Assembly: GCA_951406725.2 (NCBI GenBank)
Contig: OX597834.1
Location: forward strand, 8,928,001 to 8,992,000
DNA: 64,000 bases
DNA from: Octopus vulgaris
Lineage: Eukaryota
Reading direction: 5' to 3'
The notes under the pieces were generated by a model, which was given only the letters and a program-made list of their open reading frames with translations, was not told where the DNA came from and searched no databases. Position 1 is the stretch's first letter, and each line of letters opens with the position of its first letter. The translations under genes were made by a program, and so were the position numbers. Positions 4,286-48,134 of this stretch are shown here, in pieces.

Positions 4286-4517
4286 AAGGCGGCGAGCTGG
4301 CAGAAACGTTAGCACGCCAGGCGAAATCCTTAGCGGTATTTCGTCTGCCGTTACGTTCTGAGTTCAAATTCCGTCGAGGTCGACTTTGCCTTCCATCCTT
4401 TCAAGGTCGATAAAGTACCAGTTACGCACTGGGGTCGATGTAATCGACTTAATCCGTTTGTCTGTCCTTGTTTGTCCCCTCTGTGTTCAGCCCCTTGTGG
4501 GTAATAAAGAAACAGGT
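4286..4517 (+). mobile_element. SINE family B monomer (tRNA head plus Meta/MESC-like central domain)
   Basis: AAGGCGGCGAGCTGGCAGAA...GAGTTCAAATTCC...GACTTTGCCTTCCATCCTTTC..GGTCGATAAA..GTACCAG recurs at least 7 times in the window. The central motif resembles the MetaSINE domain (from recall). Confidence 0.85.
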
Positions 4518-6269
4518 ATAGAAAATAAAATGTGAAGTGCAAGGTTCGATGATATCAACTAAACCAGCCACGTAAAATTTTGCTCGGCTAGAACTCAATT
4601 AAAAGCAAATATTTATTACTTTTAATTTATGTATATTTTTCATGAATTATATATATTTTGTCTTCTATATAACATATGTCAGTGTGATTTATTACGTGAA
4701 ACAAAAAAAATAAGCAAATAAGCTATATCCAACGATTTTTATATCTTTTTACCATGATTTTTATTGTATTACAAATGAACTTGCTCTGATATGGTATGTT
4801 GATATGTACTGGAATAATTTGTGCTGGTGCATATTTTGAGTAAATATGTATTTATATATACATACAAGTTTGGAATATATTAGTGCTTATTGTATGGGAA
4901 TGACATTGATATATTATATGATCTTATTGCCAGTATATTATATTAAGTATTCTGGACCAGACAGTTCGAAAGTATTTCTATAAGTCTACACGTTCATATA
5001 TCTGTAAGCGTTGGGTAACTGTGGTAGAGAAAATGTTAATATCGTTAGTGCGAAAACCCTGCTGACTCTAGAAGTGGATGTGTTTACGATAAACAAGTAT
5101 CGAACAGAATTGTACTGGTGTTGGACGAGATGATGGATGAGATAGATATCCAAACTAATCATTAGACACATAACCTCATTCCACTTCGCTTTTGGCTGTG
5201 ATTTTGGAAGAACATCAGCGAAATATTCGCGTCAATTAGAGTAAAAATGCAGAGATGATATCGGTCAAAATTAGTATTTCAAATCCAGAATGGGTAAAGG
5301 CTTTACTCTTCACTGCTTAGGGATGGCCATATGGGATGGATTGATTACCACCTCTATATTGGCACATTGCTGCATACAAAACCTATGAGATGTCATATTG
5401 GATGTAGTTGTAGATACTGTAAGCGTAGACTAAAGAGGATGCGACCAGAAGTTGGTGAGTATGTGACAATTTTATACATGCATGCCGCCTATATATCTCA
5501 ATGTTCAACATATAATCATGGTAACTCGTGCTGAAGAAGCTAAGGTTTTATTATACCAATGCAGAAATCGATCCACATGAGTCCAAATACTTAAATGTAT
5601 GTTAGTAGATTGTCTTAACCTGATTTTGTCTTCGTTGGATTTCTGTAGTATTTTTGGTGACTTAATAAGAGTTTTGACTGTTATTTCAAGCAGGTTGACA
5701 TACCTAGTATGTCCTTTCATTAATTATATATATATATATATATATGGAGAGGTGAAGCTGGTAACATTCTCGGCGGGTTAAAGCGGGGGTAATGCCCATT
5801 CGGCTACCAAAATGCCAAGATCTGCGTACTAGTTACTAGTGTCTAAGTGTATGGTACGTAGATCTGTGAAAAACAATTTAGACGCCGGTGAATTAGGAAG
5901 TTCGTCTATGCCTCCGGGATCTTCACAATTTTTTTCTAATCCTCTTTTTCTGAACAACAATGAAATAATGCAAAAATGGTAAATCAGTTTTTTTCTATTT
6001 AAATATAGAATTTCGATTAATCTATATACGGTTCAAGTCGAGATTGATGTTGTTTCGCTGTAATTGAATAAAACCGCTATATAAATCCTAAAAGCGTTAC
6101 TGATGATCACAGTAAGTCTTTAATAAAATATTCATAAAGCTAATGACGCGATGCGATATTTTCACTAAGTGAACATAGTAGACGAGATGTTAGCAACTTG
6201 TTTGTGGCCACGGTTTTGAGGAGAGAACAACTCAATCAACTGCAACTCTCACGATTATTTAAATTTCGA

Positions 6270-9042: not shown

Positions 9043-9793
<751 letters not shown>

Positions 9794-9794
<1 letters not shown>

Positions 9795-10905
9795 TAAAAT
9801 GTTTTAGGCCGCGCCAAGCTGGGGGGCACCACCGCTGAATGAGCTACACTAATTTGTGAATCCACCTCTGATACGTGGCACTTGATCAACAAGGGAGTTC
9901 GATGCTGCTGCCCGCATCTGCGTGTCCTGTCGTAAGGTAGGTTAATCTGGGACTCCCGACAAGAGGAGATCCAGTTTAGTTTTAAAGAAACCCACATCCA
10001 CACCATGTAAGTCTCTCAGGCATTTAGGGAGGATGTTAAAGAGCTGTGGTCCTCTGAAACCCAAGCTGTTGCAGTATCTGGTCCTGTATTTTGATGGTAA
10101 TGTTGGAATCTTTGGCACCATCTTTGGCGCCCCGTTCTGCGGTTGGGGTAAATTTGAATGCCAAAGTTTGGGACAAGACCCTCCAGGATTTTCCAGATGT
10201 ATATCACCGCATATCTCTCCCGCCTCCGCTCTAGTGAGAAGAGATTTAATACTTTCAGTCTTTCCCAGTAGCTGATATTTTGCATTGAGACGATCTTCTT
10301 TGTGTAGCTTCTCTGAATTGCTTCGAGTTCTGCTGTTAGTTTTATATTGTGTGGTGACCATAGTTGGGAGCAGTAGTCCAAGCGGCTGAGGATGAATGTT
10401 TTCCAGAGGACCATCACTGTCCCCTTCTCTCTCTTTCTGAAAGTTCGGAGAATCCATCCAGCTAGCCGTTTGCATTTTATCACCAGATTAGTAATATGCA
10501 CTTGGAAAGATGCATCATTGCTCATGTCAATGCCCAGATCACGCACTGATTTTGACTCAGGGATTGCAATTCTTCCTGGGCCAGTGTATTCAGTCTGCAC
10601 GTAGTTTACATTTGTGTGCCGGTAGCGCAGGTCCTGGAACTTACCTGCATTAAACTGCATGTTGTTGTCCTCCACCCACCTGTATATTTTATCCAACTCC
10701 TGTTGCAAATGCGCAATATTTTCAGGGATTTGTATTGTGTGGGAGACTTTTGTTTCATCTGCATAGCTAGCATGGGTGGCCATCGTAGCAACTGAATGCA
10801 TGTCTGAAAGGGCCAATATGAACATCAGTGGCCCCAAGACAGTGCCCTGTGGGACACCGCTTGTTATTTGCGTTTCCTTGGAGGTGGCTCTATTGCTCAA
10901 AATTG
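9794..10905 (-). mobile_element. 5'-truncated CR1/L2-group LINE (RT C-terminal half plus 3' end), inactivated
   Basis: ORF 10016..10900 has SGVPQGTVLGPLMF, YADETK (YADD decayed), LDYCSQLWSP and YWERLKVLNLFSLERRRER. It frameshifts near 10120 into NSLGFRGPQLFNILP...FKTKLDLLLSGVPD. Confidence 0.9.
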
Positions 10906-10936
<31 letters not shown>

Positions 10937-10939
<3 letters not shown>

Positions 10940-11840
10940 AACAAGGAGTACTGTTGGTCATTGTTGAGTACAGATTATGTGCTACGTATGTCAGTTGATA
11001 CCATATCTGGCAAGGGCTTTGAAATAAGACCAAGAAGAAGTTTCAGACACCCAGCTGAGTACTTGACAGACACTGACTTTGCTGACGACATCGATCTTAT
11101 CAGTGATTCTCTCTCCAATGTCCAGTCTCTTTTACAATCTCTTGAACAAGCCTCAAAGTGTGTAGGTCTTTAAATCAATGAAGCCAAGACTGAATACATA
11201 AACAAGTGCCTGTCCAACAGTGATTGCATTATCCATACTCTCAACAATGCGCCCTTAAATATGGTTTCTGATTTCAAATATCTTGTGTCATACATATCAC
11301 CATCTGGAAAAGACTTTCTAACTAGAAAGGGTATGGACTGGTCAGCCTGTAATGACATGCATAAGATCTGGTCATCAAATCTAAGTAGATACTTCAAACT
11401 TGAAATCTTCAAAGCCACAGTCGAACCAATTCTACTATATGGCTCAGAATCCTGGACGTTATCAAAGAAGCTTGAGAGGCGGTTGGATGGAACCTATGCT
11501 CGCCTCCTTATGAGAGTTCAAAATCTCTCGTGGAAGCGCCATCCAACCAAAATCCAAATATATCGGAAACTACCACCTGTGTCATCTCTTGTGAAAGGTA
11601 AGAGAGTCCAGTTTGCTGGACATTGTTGTAGAGCTGAAAAAGAGGTAATTTCTACTCTTCTCCTCTGGAAGCCATCTACTCGCAATACCAGAGGGCGCAC
11701 ACTCTCCTACCCTGATGTAATCTCCAGGGATACAGGCATCCAGCAACAGGACCTCCGTAATGCCATGATGGACCGTGAAGTCTGGCGTAGCATGGTAAAT
11801 TCCATTGTCTCGACCACAGTCGAACAATGATGATGATGAT
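10937..11840 (+). mobile_element. 5'-truncated RTE-clade LINE with one in-frame stop and (TGA)n tail
   Basis: ORFs 10868..11173 and 11261..11830 share a frame: DTDFADDI, GL*INEAKTE, FKYL, ILLYGSESWTL, QFAGHC, MMDREVWR. Ends TGATGATGATGAT. Confidence 0.9.
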
Positions 11841-14311: not shown

Positions 14312-14705
14312 GGCGCAGGAGTGGCTGTGTGGTAAGTAGCTTGCTAACCAACCACATGGTACCGGGTTCAGTCCCACTGCGTGGAATCTAGGGCAAGTGT
14401 CTTCTGCTATAGCCCCGGGCCGACCAATGCCTTGTTAGTGGATTTGGTAGACGGAAACTGAAAGAAGCCTGTCGTATGTGTGTATGTGTTTGTGTATCTG
14501 TGTTTGTCCCCCTAGCATTGCTTGGCAACCGATGCTGGTGTGTTTACGTCCCCGTAACTTAGCCGTTCGGCAAAAGAGACCGATAGAATAAGTTCCGGGG
14601 TCTTATAAAGAATAAGTCCCGGGGTCGATTTTCTCGACTAAAGGCGGTGCTCCAGCATGGCCGCAGTCAAATGACTGAAACATGTAAAAGAGTAAAAGAG
14701 AGTAA
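14312..14705 (+). mobile_element. SINE family A, full length
   Basis: GGCGCAGGAGTGGCTGTGTGGTAAG head through the (GTAAAAGA)n tail. Confidence 0.92.
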
Positions 14706-14982
14706 ATATAGAGTTTATATTTTTTACACGTCGCATATTTGAGTGTGTGTACGCGTGTGTATAAATTAATATAATACGCCACGTGTTACAGGACTTTCTA
14801 TTTCTGTTAATATGTCTAATGAGATTGATATTTATATCCTTCCTGAGATTCACGCACTGCTGACCATAATTTATGCTGTCAGAGATTTTTGGAGTGCATC
14901 CGTCGAAACATTCGAAGGAGACTTCAAGATAGAAATGGTCTAACAACATCCCGAGCATTCGTCTCTTTATTCAGTTTTCTTT

Positions 14983-15017
<35 letters not shown>

Positions 15018-15025
<8 letters not shown>

Positions 15026-15451
15026 CCATTTGAATATGGCTAGCCCCTAAGTGTGGATGCTACTGTAGTTTGTAGCCCCAGGAAGACACCTCCTCCAGCT
15101 GGCTATAGACACGACGTGTTTCCGCTACTGTTTATAACTCGCTCTGAGATTTATCATTGTTTGATTTCACTTTTTCAATATCAGTGTCAATACAATAAGT
15201 ATATGTATTTGTGAAGGGAGCTGACTTCTCGTCGACAGCTATGATTGTCACACGCCGATGATAGGTCAATACCTTGAAACTCGAGTCCGTGTGTATCATA
15301 AGTTGAAGACGGGAAGGATGAGTTCCCTTCACAAATACTGATAAGGCACAGAAAGTGTGTCTATAGCCAGCTGGAGGAGGTATGTTCTTCGGGCTACAAA
15401 CTACAGTAGCATCCACCCTTAGGGGTTAGCCATATTCAAATGGCAAATATA
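15018..15451 (+). mobile_element. About 435-bp fold-back element with about 93-bp terminal inverted repeats and an internal hammerhead motif (Penelope-like inverted fragment or MITE)
   Basis: 15021-15112 is the reverse complement of 15357-15448 with a handful of mismatches. Flanked by (TA)n. Confidence 0.8.
15249..15293 (+). ncRNA. Minimal type I hammerhead ribozyme candidate (U4C core)
   Basis: CACACG-CCGATGA-tAGGT caat ACCTt-GAAA-CTCGAG-TC|-CGTGTG. Stem I extends by pairing of 15205-15245 with 15295-15338. Confidence 0.7.
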
Positions 15452-15499
15452 CGTCACGATATATGTATATATATATATATATGTAGAGAGAGAGAGAAA

Positions 15500-15835
15500 G
15501 GTGCAGGCTTGGCTGTGTGGTAAGAAGATAACTTCACAACCAATATGTCTCTGGTTCAGACCCACTGTGTGGCACTTTGTATGGCTGTCATCTACCGAAG
15601 CCACGGGCCGTCCAAAGATTTGGAAAGACGATGACGCATGGCGTATACATATATGTAAATATTTTGTGTGTGTGTGTGTGAGTGTGTTTGCGTTGCTTTC
15701 TGTGTTTGACCACTATCACTTAACACCGGATAATGGTGTACTTACATCTCCGTAAATTAGCATTTCCGCAAAGAGACCTAGAAAATTAGTACTCAAGGTG
15801 GTGCTCCAGTATGGACATAGTAAAAATAACTGAAA
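15500..15835 (+). mobile_element. Old diverged SINE family A copy
   Basis: GCAGGCTTGGCTGTGTGGTAAG head and AAGGTGGTGCTCCAGTATGG tail are recognisable. Confidence 0.7.
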
Positions 15836-15915: not shown

Positions 15916-16341
15916 TATTTATGCAAGGAAATTTCGTCAACATAGGTAATGTAAATGGATCGTGTAACTACCTAAAGCATATCATATACTTCCGGTCTGA
16001 TGCTTCATTCATCTTCTGAGAAACCGGAAAGTACTAATATCATGAATTGTGGTTATTCTTTGCGTCTAAATTTTATTACTTCTCTCTACCAATGACAGAA
16101 CACTTAGCTTATGGTATCCCCTTACCCAATATCATAATCTACTTAACTGGCTATTCTAGAAACGGCTGTAAAGTTGTCTCTACCTCTTAATACTTCCCAT
16201 CAACCTTAAATATTTGGAAGTGATGGCAAATGTGCTTTCACATTTTCTTATTCAAACTATCAGTGAATGAATGAATCATTCAAGCTATCTATCTCTCTCT
16301 CTCTCTATCTATCTCTCTATCTATCTATCTATCTGTCTGTC

Positions 16342-17192
16342 GCTACCCGTTCGGGATAAGCTCTACAGACACGGCTCGAGAAACACGGGGCCGACCTGCC
16401 CGAGATGCGGTCAGAGCGACGAAACCGTTCTGCACGCACTCGTTCAGTGTCCAACAATTTCCGACCTGTGGGCTTATGTCGAACAACTGCTGTCACGTGT
16501 GGGACGAGTCGGTTTATCAGCTGGGTCTATCGTCAATATTGTCACGCCTCCTTCCTTCAAACGGGAAGGAAGAGCGATTTTCATCATCCTTGTGGCTATG
16601 GCGAAAGAATGTATCTGGTGGACGCGTCTGAAAGGATTGGAGACAAACACTTTCCTCTCTGGTCAATCTCTCATCAACTTCTTCAAGTACCACTTGAAAA
16701 GGAAAGTGAGAGTAGAGAGGCAAGTTTTGTCTAGCGAATGTTTTAAAAAGATGGGTGAATGTAGCAAGAATGGCACGTATGAATGACGAAGCCACCTTGA
16801 GCATAGTCCTATGAACCCAGAAATCGAAAACAGAGAGTTGCTTATTTGCAAAAAAAAAAAAAAAAGAAATATAAAATGTGACTTCATTGACCGAGGTTAC
16901 CGTGGTCTTTTCCGTAGGCTTTTCTTTCCACGGGTAAACCTCACCTGTCCTCCCCTTTACACTTCATATTGACATTTCTGTGATAACGATCCCTATTGAT
17001 CAATTTTTTTTCCTCTCCCCCTTTTTTTTAACCCCCTTTTTTTGTCCTCTTTCTCTCCTTTTACGATCCCTTTTGATCGAAACTCCCCCTTCCTTTTTTT
17101 TTTTTTTTTTTTTTTTTAAACCTTCAAAAGAAAAGCTCTACCTTGTAATTTGTTCTATCTGTGTGCAGCCCTGTGTGGCTAATAAAGAAACA
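16342..17192 (+). mobile_element. 5'-truncated Tx1/L1-clade LINE 3' end (zf-RVT domain plus 3' UTR)
   Basis: LPVRDKLYRHG..CPRCGQSDETVLHALVQC...W...AKECIWWTR is a typical Tx1/L1 ORF2 C-terminal zinc knuckle. T-rich UTR, AATAAA at 17181, candidate TSD TATCTATCTGTCTGTC at 16326-16341 and 17193-17208. Confidence 0.85.
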
Positions 17193-46532: not shown

Positions 46533-48134
46533 TCCAGTTGCGAAGCGTTGGTATCTCTCTCTCTCTCTCTATCAAACACACACACACACAGAAAAATTAA
46601 GATTTTCGCCATATAATTGCGCAGGGGCTACGCTAACCATTTTGGTATCGTCCCAGTTGTAGAGTAGGTGCCGCCTAATGTAGTACGTTCCGATAATATT
46701 CCAACATTATGCAAAATCCTCAGCAGTGTACCTAGAGTAGGGTTTTCTATTATCTTCTGTTTCTGCGAATGATTATCCTTACCGCCAATGATCCGTACAT
46801 ACTTCATACTAAAGCGTTTTACCATTATGCGTGATTCATGTCCTGAATAAAGTTTTCAGCAGCTGCTTATAGTGATAAAGATAGTATTTCATAATATCAT
46901 GTTACAATCGATACTTTCCGTTCGAACGTAAAGGGATGGCATCTTTATTTATCATCTGATTAAACATTCGGTGCCTGTCTCTCCTTCATGAATAGCGGAA
47001 GAGTATCTGGGAGAAGCCAGGCGTAATACCATTAGCAGTAATTCAAAAGAGACTAAATTTCCCCTCATTATTTTATTTTCCAGTATGAAAGAAAAGGCCT
47101 TATATTATATATTCTATTGTTATAAAGTAGTTTTCTGCAAATATTATTTTAAAATATAAAAGTTTAGATTTCTTTGATCAAATGAAATAGCTGTATACTC
47201 TCTATACTTTCTCATGGAGTATCCAAGTATTTCAATATTGTTTTCACACGTTGGTAGAATTGTGATCTATTCTCTTCACAATTTACCCTTCATTAATCTG
47301 ACTTATGGGAATTGATTCTTAACACCGCTTTTTTTTTTTCTCCTTAACGTATGCCACCAAATCTATCTCAATTAAAAGGAAGATTGTCCTTCTTACACTC
47401 GATTCAGAATCTATCATTGCTGCTGGATTTTTCTTATTCTTATTATCCAATTTCACATATATTCAAATAGCTAATCTAGTATCACAAATGTGTTACTCAA
47501 GCAAACATCATGTAATATTATATTACACCACATCTTCCCTCGTATTAAGCCTTAAAGGTATAATTCTGCTGACACATCTGTTTGTTTCACTACTAAGTGT
47601 GTAATATTACAAACGCTGATAAGGTTAGAAGTAAGCAACACATTTCTGCTCTTCACTGCTATGTACACTTAAACTGACGAAATTCTTTTCCTATATTACT
47701 TAATGGTATTTGATGCTATTTAATATTATTTATGGTAATTGGTGTCTTAAATGATATTTTATATTATTGAAACGATCAAGTGTAAGTGGCAATATTTTTC
47801 TTTCTATTTCGATTTTAAACTGTAACCATGATATTATCTCACCGACGTTGACAAATGGTTCCCTATCAGAATGAAAACAGCACAAAGAGCCGCCATATTG
47901 AAATATTCTTGACGATAACCCAATTCTATTCATCACAAAACATGTTGTGTATATTCAATGTATGCCTTATGTATAACATAATATAGAATTTGAACTTGCA
48001 TATTGAGTCAATGACACAAAAAGAGTTAAGTCGGATTCTTTCGTTGGCAGAATCGTTACCGGGACGGGCAAAACGCTTAGTGACATTTCGTTCGTCTTTA
48101 AGTTTGAGTTCAAATCAGCCGGGGATGTTGAATT

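What the first reader, a model, noticed from the sequence alone, without database searches (positions are those of the whole stretch)
15205..15338. Best hammerhead candidate: U4C core, GUC site and about 40-bp extended stem I
Seen: CACACG/CGTGTG closes CCGATGA-tAGGTcaatACCTt-GAAA-CTCGAG-TC. The helix continues through ATGAT/ATCAT, CAGCT/AGTTG, CTTCTCGTC/GACGGGAAG and GTATTTGTGAAGGGAGCT/AGTTCCCTTCACAAATAC. Several imperfect pairs are G-U on the plus strand, favouring an RNA structure on that strand over a DNA palindrome. Deviations from the textbook core are U4C and a U-U at the base of stem II. Predicted cleavage is after 15287 (inference).
Basis: partly seen in the sequence, partly recalled or inferred. 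Interest (0 to 1): 0.8.

Follow-up and report, generated by a model that had tools for sequence, protein, structure and literature searches.

The report
Octopus retrozyme with variant hammerhead core
This hairpin is the hammerhead (self-cutting RNA) motif of one lone copy of a 352-base non-coding jumping repeat present in well over a thousand copies in a probable octopus genome; it is a known kind of element, but its family tree shows the catalytic core drifting to a likely weaker form and being restored twice.

Summary
The motif and helix are really there (z -8.6), but they are not a stand-alone RNA. They lie inside one 352-bp unit (15110-15460) of a repeat family. A 95-bp inverted copy of the unit's 3' end precedes it, and (TA)n flanks both sides. 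Siblings show partial tandems, 5' truncation and inversion, fixed 3' ends and TA targets: a Penelope-type footprint. It is a non-LTR retrozyme with a type I hammerhead whose palindromic stem III suggests cleavage as a dimer.

U4C is not this copy's decay: 364 exact core matches carry it. The tree gives U4 -> C4 -> two separate returns to U4; one return also rebuilt G10.1-C11.1 and is among the youngest and the most tandem-rich (482 matches; Rfam Hammerhead_1 E 2e-6). A sister family swaps C3-G8 for U3-A8 and keeps a palindrome. So the fold is under selection. U4C, the U-U mismatch and U3-A8 are each already described. Cleavage, circles and transcription are untested; this single copy is probably a dead end. 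The scan had already found octopus retrozymes on other DNA. Verdict: new member of a known kind, with a useful natural allelic series.

The parts
14985..15022 (.). (TA)n target microsatellite, left side
   Evidence: sequence
15018..15112 (-). inverted 5'-truncated copy of the unit's 3' end (matches 15357-15451, 89 of 95 identical); joined to the direct unit through a 3-nt overlap at 15108-15110
15110..15460 (+). one nearly complete 352-bp retrozyme unit (7-bp deletion near 15190), 94.9% identical to a sibling unit
15205..15338 (+). rod-like hairpin that carries the hammerhead; pairs kept across subfamilies
15241..15299 (+). type I hammerhead proper: 6-bp stem I plus internal loop (15246-48 / 15294) and 5 distal pairs, core, stems II and III
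   Evidence: Rfam match is to the canonical sibling L196
15255..15261 (+). core strand C3-A9 with C at position 4 (15256)
15262..15275 (+). stem II with U10.1-U11.1 mismatch and 6-nt loop region
15279..15286 (+). self-complementary 8-mer stem III (predicted intermolecular helix, -10.7 kcal/mol)
   Evidence: palindrome kept with a swapped centre in the sister family
15287..15288 (+). predicted scissile bond, after the C of GUC
   Evidence: inference from hammerhead numbering; for the coordinate
15459..15485 (.). (TA)n target microsatellite, right side
   Evidence: sequence

Best explanation
The hairpin is the type I hammerhead motif of a solitary copy of a 352-bp non-coding repeat (a non-LTR retrozyme) that is likely copied into (TA)n microsatellites by a Penelope-like reverse transcriptase-endonuclease, and its C4 core is an inherited subfamily state that is predicted to cleave slowly, and mainly as a dimer. 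Shown: the unit, its copies, the tandem/inverted architecture, TA targets, conserved pairing, the history of position 4. Inferred: multi-unit source loci are transcribed on the plus strand; two adjacent hammerheads pair through the palindromic stem III and cut after GUC; unit-length RNA is ligated into a circle; the PLE enzyme nicks (TA)n, primes at one of two internal AT-overlap points (unit end or about 46 nt on) and copies through the ribozyme site, a second priming giving the inverted arm. The window copy has one hammerhead only, so it could be cut once at most and could not release a unit: probably a dead end. C4 was tolerated through three to four successive source elements, then replaced by U4 twice, which fits a mild cost to cleavage (helped by CpG mutation).
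For: Copies: 46 listed matches, 1683 candidates; exact core patterns 364 (C4), 259 (U4, U7), 482 (fully canonical), sister family 606 + 97; reversed-pattern controls 0. Architecture in 48 loci: 27 hold both orientations; 72 of 75 3' ends fall at two fixed points; 58 of 75 are followed by (TA)n; this matches the PLE description in PMC8557442 (passages). Arrays of up to 9 and 5 units. Structure: 38 copies, 47 pairs, 89.7% of cells paired against 37-51% for slid controls; 95 cells changed on both sides against 34 in shuffles; subfamily steps run through plus-strand G-U pairs (C-G>U-G>U-A, A-U>G-U>G-C) and stem II changes G-C>A-U. Core: purine at position 4 in only 4 matches; opposite-strand CpG decay (G5A) in only 18, so the 259 U4 matches are not mere decay; in 12 of 20 sister loci that keep the core and were found by a motif outside it, G5, A6, A9 are kept in 12 and the 3-8 pair is C-G in 7 and U-A in 5 (read). 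Trees without the core columns: one gain of C4 and two returns to U4 in this family; U4 monophyly rejected, AU p 2e-5. Canonical sibling matches Rfam RF00163, 32.2 bits, E 2e-6. Helper present: 16 of 150 GIY-YIG matches lie in 781-aa open frames with RT and GIY-YIG domains, a tandem 385-bp end repeat and TA flank.
Against: No cleavage, circle or transcript was observed. Rfam misses this copy and the canonical sibling is below the gathering score of 34. Nearest-neighbour folding gives an open core with probability at most 0.005 for all six own-family variants, the canonical one included. 'Further pair types' does not exceed shuffles (35 vs 34.8; 300 of 500) and 'pairs changed on both sides' only weakly (18 of 500), and the copies are related. 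Circular folding favours the plus strand by z-score in only 2 of 4 monomers. The unit shows no sequence homology to 34 PLE loci, apart from a separate insertion next to one, so the helper is not identified. Most copies were found with patterns that fix parts of the core. In Xenopus 8 of 9 predicted dimers did not cleave (10.64898/2026.07.22.740005).
Confidence: 0.8

Rival explanations
1. Same element, but the C4/U-U hammerhead is catalytically dead. The C4 subfamilies spread from uncleaved multi-unit or read-through transcripts, with the rod structure kept for binding the helper protein, and the returns to U4 are CpG mutation plus chance.
For: Two deviations at once; U4C 'considerably decreases activity in vitro' (PMC3088659); head-to-tail pairs are rare in C4/U-U loci (3 of 58) against canonical loci (19 of 56), Fisher p 1e-4; Naiad PLEs are reported to spread without canonical hammerheads (PMC8557442); position 4 is the C of a CpG.
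Against: All other core positions and the palindrome stay fixed through three to four C4 source elements; C4 also arose in the sister family and in the end repeat of a coding PLE family (L170, L171); a 9-unit array has C4 throughout; the same paper says U4C keeps enough activity in vivo for viroid infectivity; a 2026 survey uses CYGANGA and reports C/T at that position (PMC13481778).
Confidence: 0.25
2. The unit is the detached end repeat (pLTR) of an autonomous PLE not yet found: the copies are just 5'-truncated ends, not an independent retrozyme.
For: PLE insertions are mostly 5'-truncated and retrozymes are related to pLTRs in Xenopus; only 34 PLE loci were compared.
Against: Upstream of a complete unit lies the previous unit's 3' end or flank, never a shared unique sequence, in the loci mapped; pure arrays of 2-9 units exist; the hammerhead has canonical 6-bp/4-bp helices rather than the PLE minimal form.
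Confidence: 0.07
3. A MITE or foldback DNA transposon with terminal inverted repeats and a TA target; the hairpin is a DNA palindrome that resembles a hammerhead by chance.
For: In the window the element has 95-bp terminal inverted arms and TA flanks.
Against: Arm length varies from copy to copy and is absent in 21 of 48 loci; 5' ends are ragged and 3' ends fixed; head-to-tail units occur; G-U intermediates are strand-specific; core changes follow hammerhead rules.
Confidence: 0.02

Closest known systems
Metazoan non-LTR retrozymes (Cervera and de la Pena 2020, PMC7229834; passages and sections 14-15 read), above all axolotl Rtz_353 / HHR_Amex2 and the mussel 350-390 bp repeats
   Same: Unit about 350 bp, GC 41-45%, no ORF, one type I hammerhead per unit, monomers to multimers, short stem III, and a U-U mismatch at the base of stem II as in HHR_Amex2, which cleaves weakly as a monomer (22% in 1 h) and better as a dimer.
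   Different: No sequence comparison was made. C4 core in about a third of this family's exact matches; mostly solitary or partial-tandem copies with inverted arms in (TA)n; RNA not shown. No cephalopod case found in searches.
Penelope-like elements, Neptune type, and their pLTR hammerheads (Cervera and de la Pena 2014, PMC4209133, results and discussion read; Craig et al. 2021, PMC8557442, passages; Li et al. 2026, 10.64898/2026.07.22.740005, parts 1-3 of 5)
   Same: Partial tandems, inverted 5'-truncated copy, short tail at one end (42-53 nt here, 30-40 described), microsatellite targets, palindromic stem III, natural U3-A8 covariant.
   Different: No ORF; canonical-size helices with a stem I internal loop; no homology to the 34 local PLE loci tested.
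Natural hammerhead core variants: viroid U4C (Ambros and Flores 1998, not held; known here only through PMC3088659 passages), U10.1-U11.1 and U3-A8 (PMC3088659), CYGANGA descriptor (PMC13481778 passages)
   Same: Each single deviation seen here is described.
   Different: Here they occur as amplified subfamily states of one genomic family, in hundreds of copies, with an order that can be read from a tree, including two returns to U4.

Membership tests
Type I hammerhead ribozyme (Rfam RF00163) | Three helices round the core, open end in stem I | tested here: met
   (stems I and II covary; stem III invariant in the alignment's three pairs)
Type I hammerhead ribozyme (Rfam RF00163) | Core CUGANGA / GAAA / UH and G10.1-C11.1 | tested here: inconclusive
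   This copy has C4 and U-U (both described natural variants); siblings reach the full consensus
Type I hammerhead ribozyme (Rfam RF00163) | Score at or above Rfam's gathering threshold (34 bits) | tested here: not met
   No hit for the window copy at E up to 10; canonical sibling 32.2 bits, E 2e-6
Type I hammerhead ribozyme (Rfam RF00163) | Loop 1 - loop 2 tertiary contact | not testable with these tools
   Geometry fits (internal loop after 6 bp; loop II resembles the Rfam consensus loop); contact itself not tested
Type I hammerhead ribozyme (Rfam RF00163) | Self-cleavage | not testable with these tools
   Needs in vitro assay; contigs cannot show RNA ends
Non-LTR retrozyme | Non-coding unit of about 170-400 bp with one type I hammerhead each, GC under 50% | tested here: met
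   352-353 bp, GC 0.41-0.45; no ORF of 150 aa or more over the element in the window
Non-LTR retrozyme | Head-to-tail repeats with two or more hammerheads in the family | tested here: met
   9-unit and 5-unit arrays; the window copy itself is a monomer
Non-LTR retrozyme | No LTR, PBS or PPT | tested here: inconclusive
   No LTR-type ends in the mapped copies; PBS and PPT not searched
Non-LTR retrozyme | Expressed as linear and circular unit-length RNA | not testable with these tools
   No run on record as RNA; a 383-nt contig that closes on itself after 352 nt fits a circle or a tandem
PLE-mobilised element | Partial tandem, 5' truncation and inversion, tail, microsatellite target | tested here: met
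PLE-mobilised element | Identified autonomous partner sharing end sequence | tested here: not met
   No homology to 34 GIY-YIG loci; only 34 stretches from the 150 listed matches were compared
MITE / TIR DNA transposon | Fixed terminal inverted repeats in all copies | tested here: not met

The most novel reading that the evidence does not exclude
The family is a natural, ordered experiment on hammerhead catalysis: C4 slows cleavage and shifts the element from circle-templated to linear-templated copying, so C4 subfamilies leave mostly single units, while the lineage that regained U4 and G10.1-C11.1 makes circles efficiently, inserts as multimers and became the dominant young form. Ribozyme strength would then set the shape and success of Penelope-type insertions, answering what hammerheads do for these elements.
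Probability: 0.25. Interest if true: 0.6.

Novelty: new member of a known kind. Interest (0 to 1): 0.35.

Why it matters
What hammerheads do for Penelope-like elements and retrozymes is described as unclear in the papers read. This family offers natural variants on one background (U4 or C4; C-A, C-U, U-U or G-C at the base of stem II; C3-G8 or U3-A8 in the sister family), each amplified tens to hundreds of times, with an order from a tree and different tandem frequencies. Measuring their cleavage rates and circle levels would test directly whether ribozyme speed matters to transposition. It also shows that CUGANGA-only scans miss hundreds of genomic hammerhead motifs here. The window copy itself is most likely an inert insertion.

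Tried and rejected
Rfam scan of the whole window: the 150 listed matches were microsatellite-driven miRNA models and one weak U6. Expression: no RNA holder listed; all laid runs were contigs of unrecorded library type; run X1 covers the repeat but not the unique flank 14730-14974, which three other runs cover: no conclusion. Empty-site test for this insertion: no contig bridged the TA tracts. 5' ends piling up at the scissile bond as a sign of cleavage: 14 of 81 breakpoints within 8 nt against 6, 7 and 8 in neighbouring windows of equal width (sister family alone 8 of 56, p 0.09), but the junctions inspected lie mostly 3-7 nt upstream of the bond, one within 1 nt: inconclusive. Idea that every subfamily keeps a weakened core ('tuned down'): refuted by 482 fully canonical matches. 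Idea that C4 traps the core in a misfold with stem III: folding does not separate C4 from U4. Idea that U4 copies are CpG decay of C4: refuted. Circular-fold strand test: not discriminating. Four short-stem-II relatives (L061, L063-L065) share only the core and stem III; no helper ORF near the two checked. One search was meant to exclude U7 but included it; it shows only that at most 9 C4 matches have C or G at position 7. A PLE-specific Pfam accession recalled from memory is not in the library. MITE reading rejected. Repeat libraries and the supplements of PMC13282606, PMC7229834 and PMC4209133 were not read; the family may be catalogued there under another name.

Full report
1. Observation. 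The sequence is as described. Stem I (15249-15254 / 15288-15293) closes CCGATGA (15255-15261), a stem II with U-U at its base (15262-15275), GAAA, and a stem III that ends in GUC with C17 at 15287. Four further helices extend to 15205/15338. The plus strand folds at -67.7 kcal/mol (z -8.6), the minus strand at -53.6 (z -6.7). A generic scan of both strands of the window found only this site. Rfam does not recognise this copy.

2. What surrounds it. The hairpin sits inside a larger element: (TA)n, then 95 bp (15018-15112) that are the reverse complement of 15357-15451, then 15110-15460, then (TA)n. The genome has 2.8 Gb in 227 contigs, about 30 of chromosome size; from this and the microsatellite content I infer an octopus (not shown). 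A DNA search gave 46 listed matches at 94-100% and 1683 candidates. Mapping them shows a 352-bp unit that occurs whole, 5'-truncated, head-to-tail, followed by a 42-53 nt start of the next unit, or preceded by an inverted piece of its own 3' end. In 48 loci, 27 hold both orientations, 72 of 75 3' ends lie at two fixed points and 58 of 75 run into (TA)n. This is the insertion pattern described for Penelope-like elements (PMC8557442, passages). Arrays of nine and five units exist. The window's inverted arms are therefore a product of insertion, not transposon TIRs.

3. Position 4. Exact core patterns give 364 matches with C4 and U7, 259 with U4 and U7, 482 with the full textbook core and G10.1-C11.1, 4 with a purine at 4, and 18 with the opposite-strand CpG change G5A; controls 0. 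So C4 and U4 are both inherited from source elements. In 100 copies six groups emerge (array duplicates and duplicate places dropped): old U4/C-A (9 copies, 5.5% from their column majority), C4/C-A (15, 3.1%), C4/C-U (12, 2.2%), C4/U-U (28, 1.8%; the window's group, biased low because chosen as best hits), C4/U-U with a changed loop (6, 0.7%), U4/U-U (30, 2.8%, heterogeneous). Eighteen canonical copies differ by 0.85% on average, median 0.4%. With position 4 removed, a 49-row subsample rejects one U4 clade (AU p 2e-5; L024 and L053 left out as apparent recombinants). Rooted on the sister family, a 53-row tree without the core columns needs four changes, three of them here: one gain of C4 (98/96) and two returns to U4, in the canonical lineage (100/100) and in the U-U lineage (98/88). 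With more sister rows the count is 7, 5 forced by well-supported branches. By the rate quoted in PMC13282606 (0.09 = 25 My; passages) the series would span very roughly 15 to 1 My; that rate was not derived here.

4. Selection on the fold. Between groups, paired columns move through plus-strand G-U pairs (C-G>U-G>U-A; A-U>G-U>G-C) and stem II changes G-C>A-U on both sides. On 38 copies of both families, 89.7% of cells pair against 37-51% in slid controls, and 95 cells change on both sides against 34 in shuffles; two of the five measures are weak or null (18 and 300 of 500 shuffles reach them) and the rows are related. The sister family was found by a motif outside the core (867 matches). In the 12 of its first 20 loci that keep the core (two are arms of one insertion), G5, A6 and A9 are constant, position 7 is A, C or G, position 4 is C in 5, and the 3-8 pair is C-G in 7 and U-A in 5 (read; 97 exact U3-A8 matches). 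Its stem III has the two central bases swapped and is still a palindrome. The canonical subfamily matches Rfam Hammerhead_1 at 32.2 bits, E 2e-6, just under the gathering score. These are the changes a working hammerhead allows.

5. Mechanism. Shown: anatomy, copies, conservation, history. Inferred, by analogy with PMC7229834 (sections 14-15 read) and PMC4209133 (results and discussion read): tandem source loci are transcribed; neighbouring hammerheads pair through the 8-nt palindrome (-10.7 kcal/mol) and cut; monomers are ligated to circles; a PLE enzyme nicks (TA)n and primes inside the unit. Insertions run through the ribozyme site and often exceed one unit, so the template was a circle or an uncut multimer; I cannot tell which. 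A candidate helper exists, a young 781-aa RT-GIY-YIG family that also ends in (TA)n, but it shares no sequence with the unit (34 loci compared). The window copy has one hammerhead and cannot release a unit. Head-to-tail pairs are more frequent in canonical loci (19 of 56, from the first 100 of 482 matches) than in C4/U-U loci (3 of 58, all 66 matches), p 1e-4; fetched loci gave 9 of 20, 1 of 24, 3 of 26 for U4/U-U and 0 of 44 for older groups (one canonical locus was picked for its array). Age, exact matching and loss of arrays by recombination confound this, U4/U-U is as low as C4, and the nine-unit C4 array is a counter-example.

6. What did not work. No run is on record as RNA. Contigs show the family in five coded organisms; one 383-nt contig of the canonical form closes on itself after 352 nt, which fits a circle or a tandem. 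5' breakpoints are about twice as dense near the cleavage site but do not sit on it. Folding models give an open core at most 0.5% of the time for every own-family variant and so say nothing on C4.

7. Comparison with what is known. It works like, and by the testable features is, a metazoan non-LTR retrozyme; axolotl HHR_Amex2 has the same U-U mismatch and cleaves weakly alone and better as a dimer. U4C is known from a viroid, where it lowers activity in vitro yet allows infection; U-U is the best tolerated mismatch at 10.1-11.1; U3-A8 is a natural covariant (PMC3088659, passages; PMC4209133). A 2026 survey searches with CYGANGA and finds C or T there (PMC13481778, passages). A PLE origin of retrozymes is argued in 10.64898/2026.07.22.740005 (parts 1-3 of 5; 1 of 9 dimers cleaved). 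Searches for hammerhead with octopus, retrozyme with cephalopod, U4C and C4 core spellings showed no description of this family or of such a gain and double loss; the library is incomplete and supplements and repeat libraries were not read. This scan's earlier notes report other octopus retrozyme families with the same footprint (seen after my reading was formed); a sequence look-up found no look-alike.

8. Verdict. A real hammerhead motif in a new member of a known kind of element. Class about 90% sure; the full mechanism 80%; slow cleavage by the C4/U-U form as a dimer about 60%; function of this particular copy unlikely. Interest 0.35, owed to the natural allelic series rather than to this copy.

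Noticed in passing
L161:1745-4087 (+) and related loci L162-L169: Young coding PLE family, 781-aa RT + GIY-YIG frame with a Cys motif before the nuclease (Neptune-like by the description in PMC8557442), 385-bp tandem end repeat, ending in (TA)n; 16 of 150 GIY-YIG matches have this frame length. Its end repeat holds a hammerhead-like core with U3-A8 and a palindromic stem III but a weak stem I; seen in 12 of 20 GIY-YIG loci.
   Followed up: partly
L170 about 4490-4550 (+), L171: A second coding PLE family whose 3' region has a hammerhead-like motif with C4, a U-U mismatch at the base of stem II and a palindromic stem III: the same two deviations as the finding, in unrelated sequence.
   Followed up: partly
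L121-L140, L175-L194, L215-L254: Sister retrozyme family (350-bp unit, about 75-80% alike; 867 exact matches to a 3' motif), with U4, C4 and U3-A8 subfamilies; the U3-A8 form mostly has G10.1-C11.1.
   Followed up: yes
L066:2900-6047 (G000 C2): Nine-unit head-to-tail array with C4 in every unit.
   Followed up: partly
L024, L053: Copies with a C4-type core on an otherwise U4-subfamily background: possible recombinants or template switches; left out of the later own-family samples.
   Followed up: no
L061, L063-L065: Other hammerhead-like motifs with the same stem III palindrome, a 12-nt stem II region and unrelated flanks; probably ends of further families.
   Followed up: partly
window 10016-10906 (-), 11174-11830 (+), 16271-16786 (+): Open frames that look like fragments of LINE reverse transcriptases or their C-terminal parts (judged by eye, not searched).
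   Followed up: no
window 9150-9800: Tandem units of about 55-60 bp, each a short constant motif followed by a (TA)n tract of varying length.
   Followed up: no
window 46590-46686 (-): Weak U6 snRNA-like match, 32.3 bits against a gathering score of 44; probably a pseudogene or SINE head.
   Followed up: no
window 14660-14700 and 15500-15600: Very high-copy repeats (SINE-like) flank the insertion on both sides, by summed contig depth.
   Followed up: no
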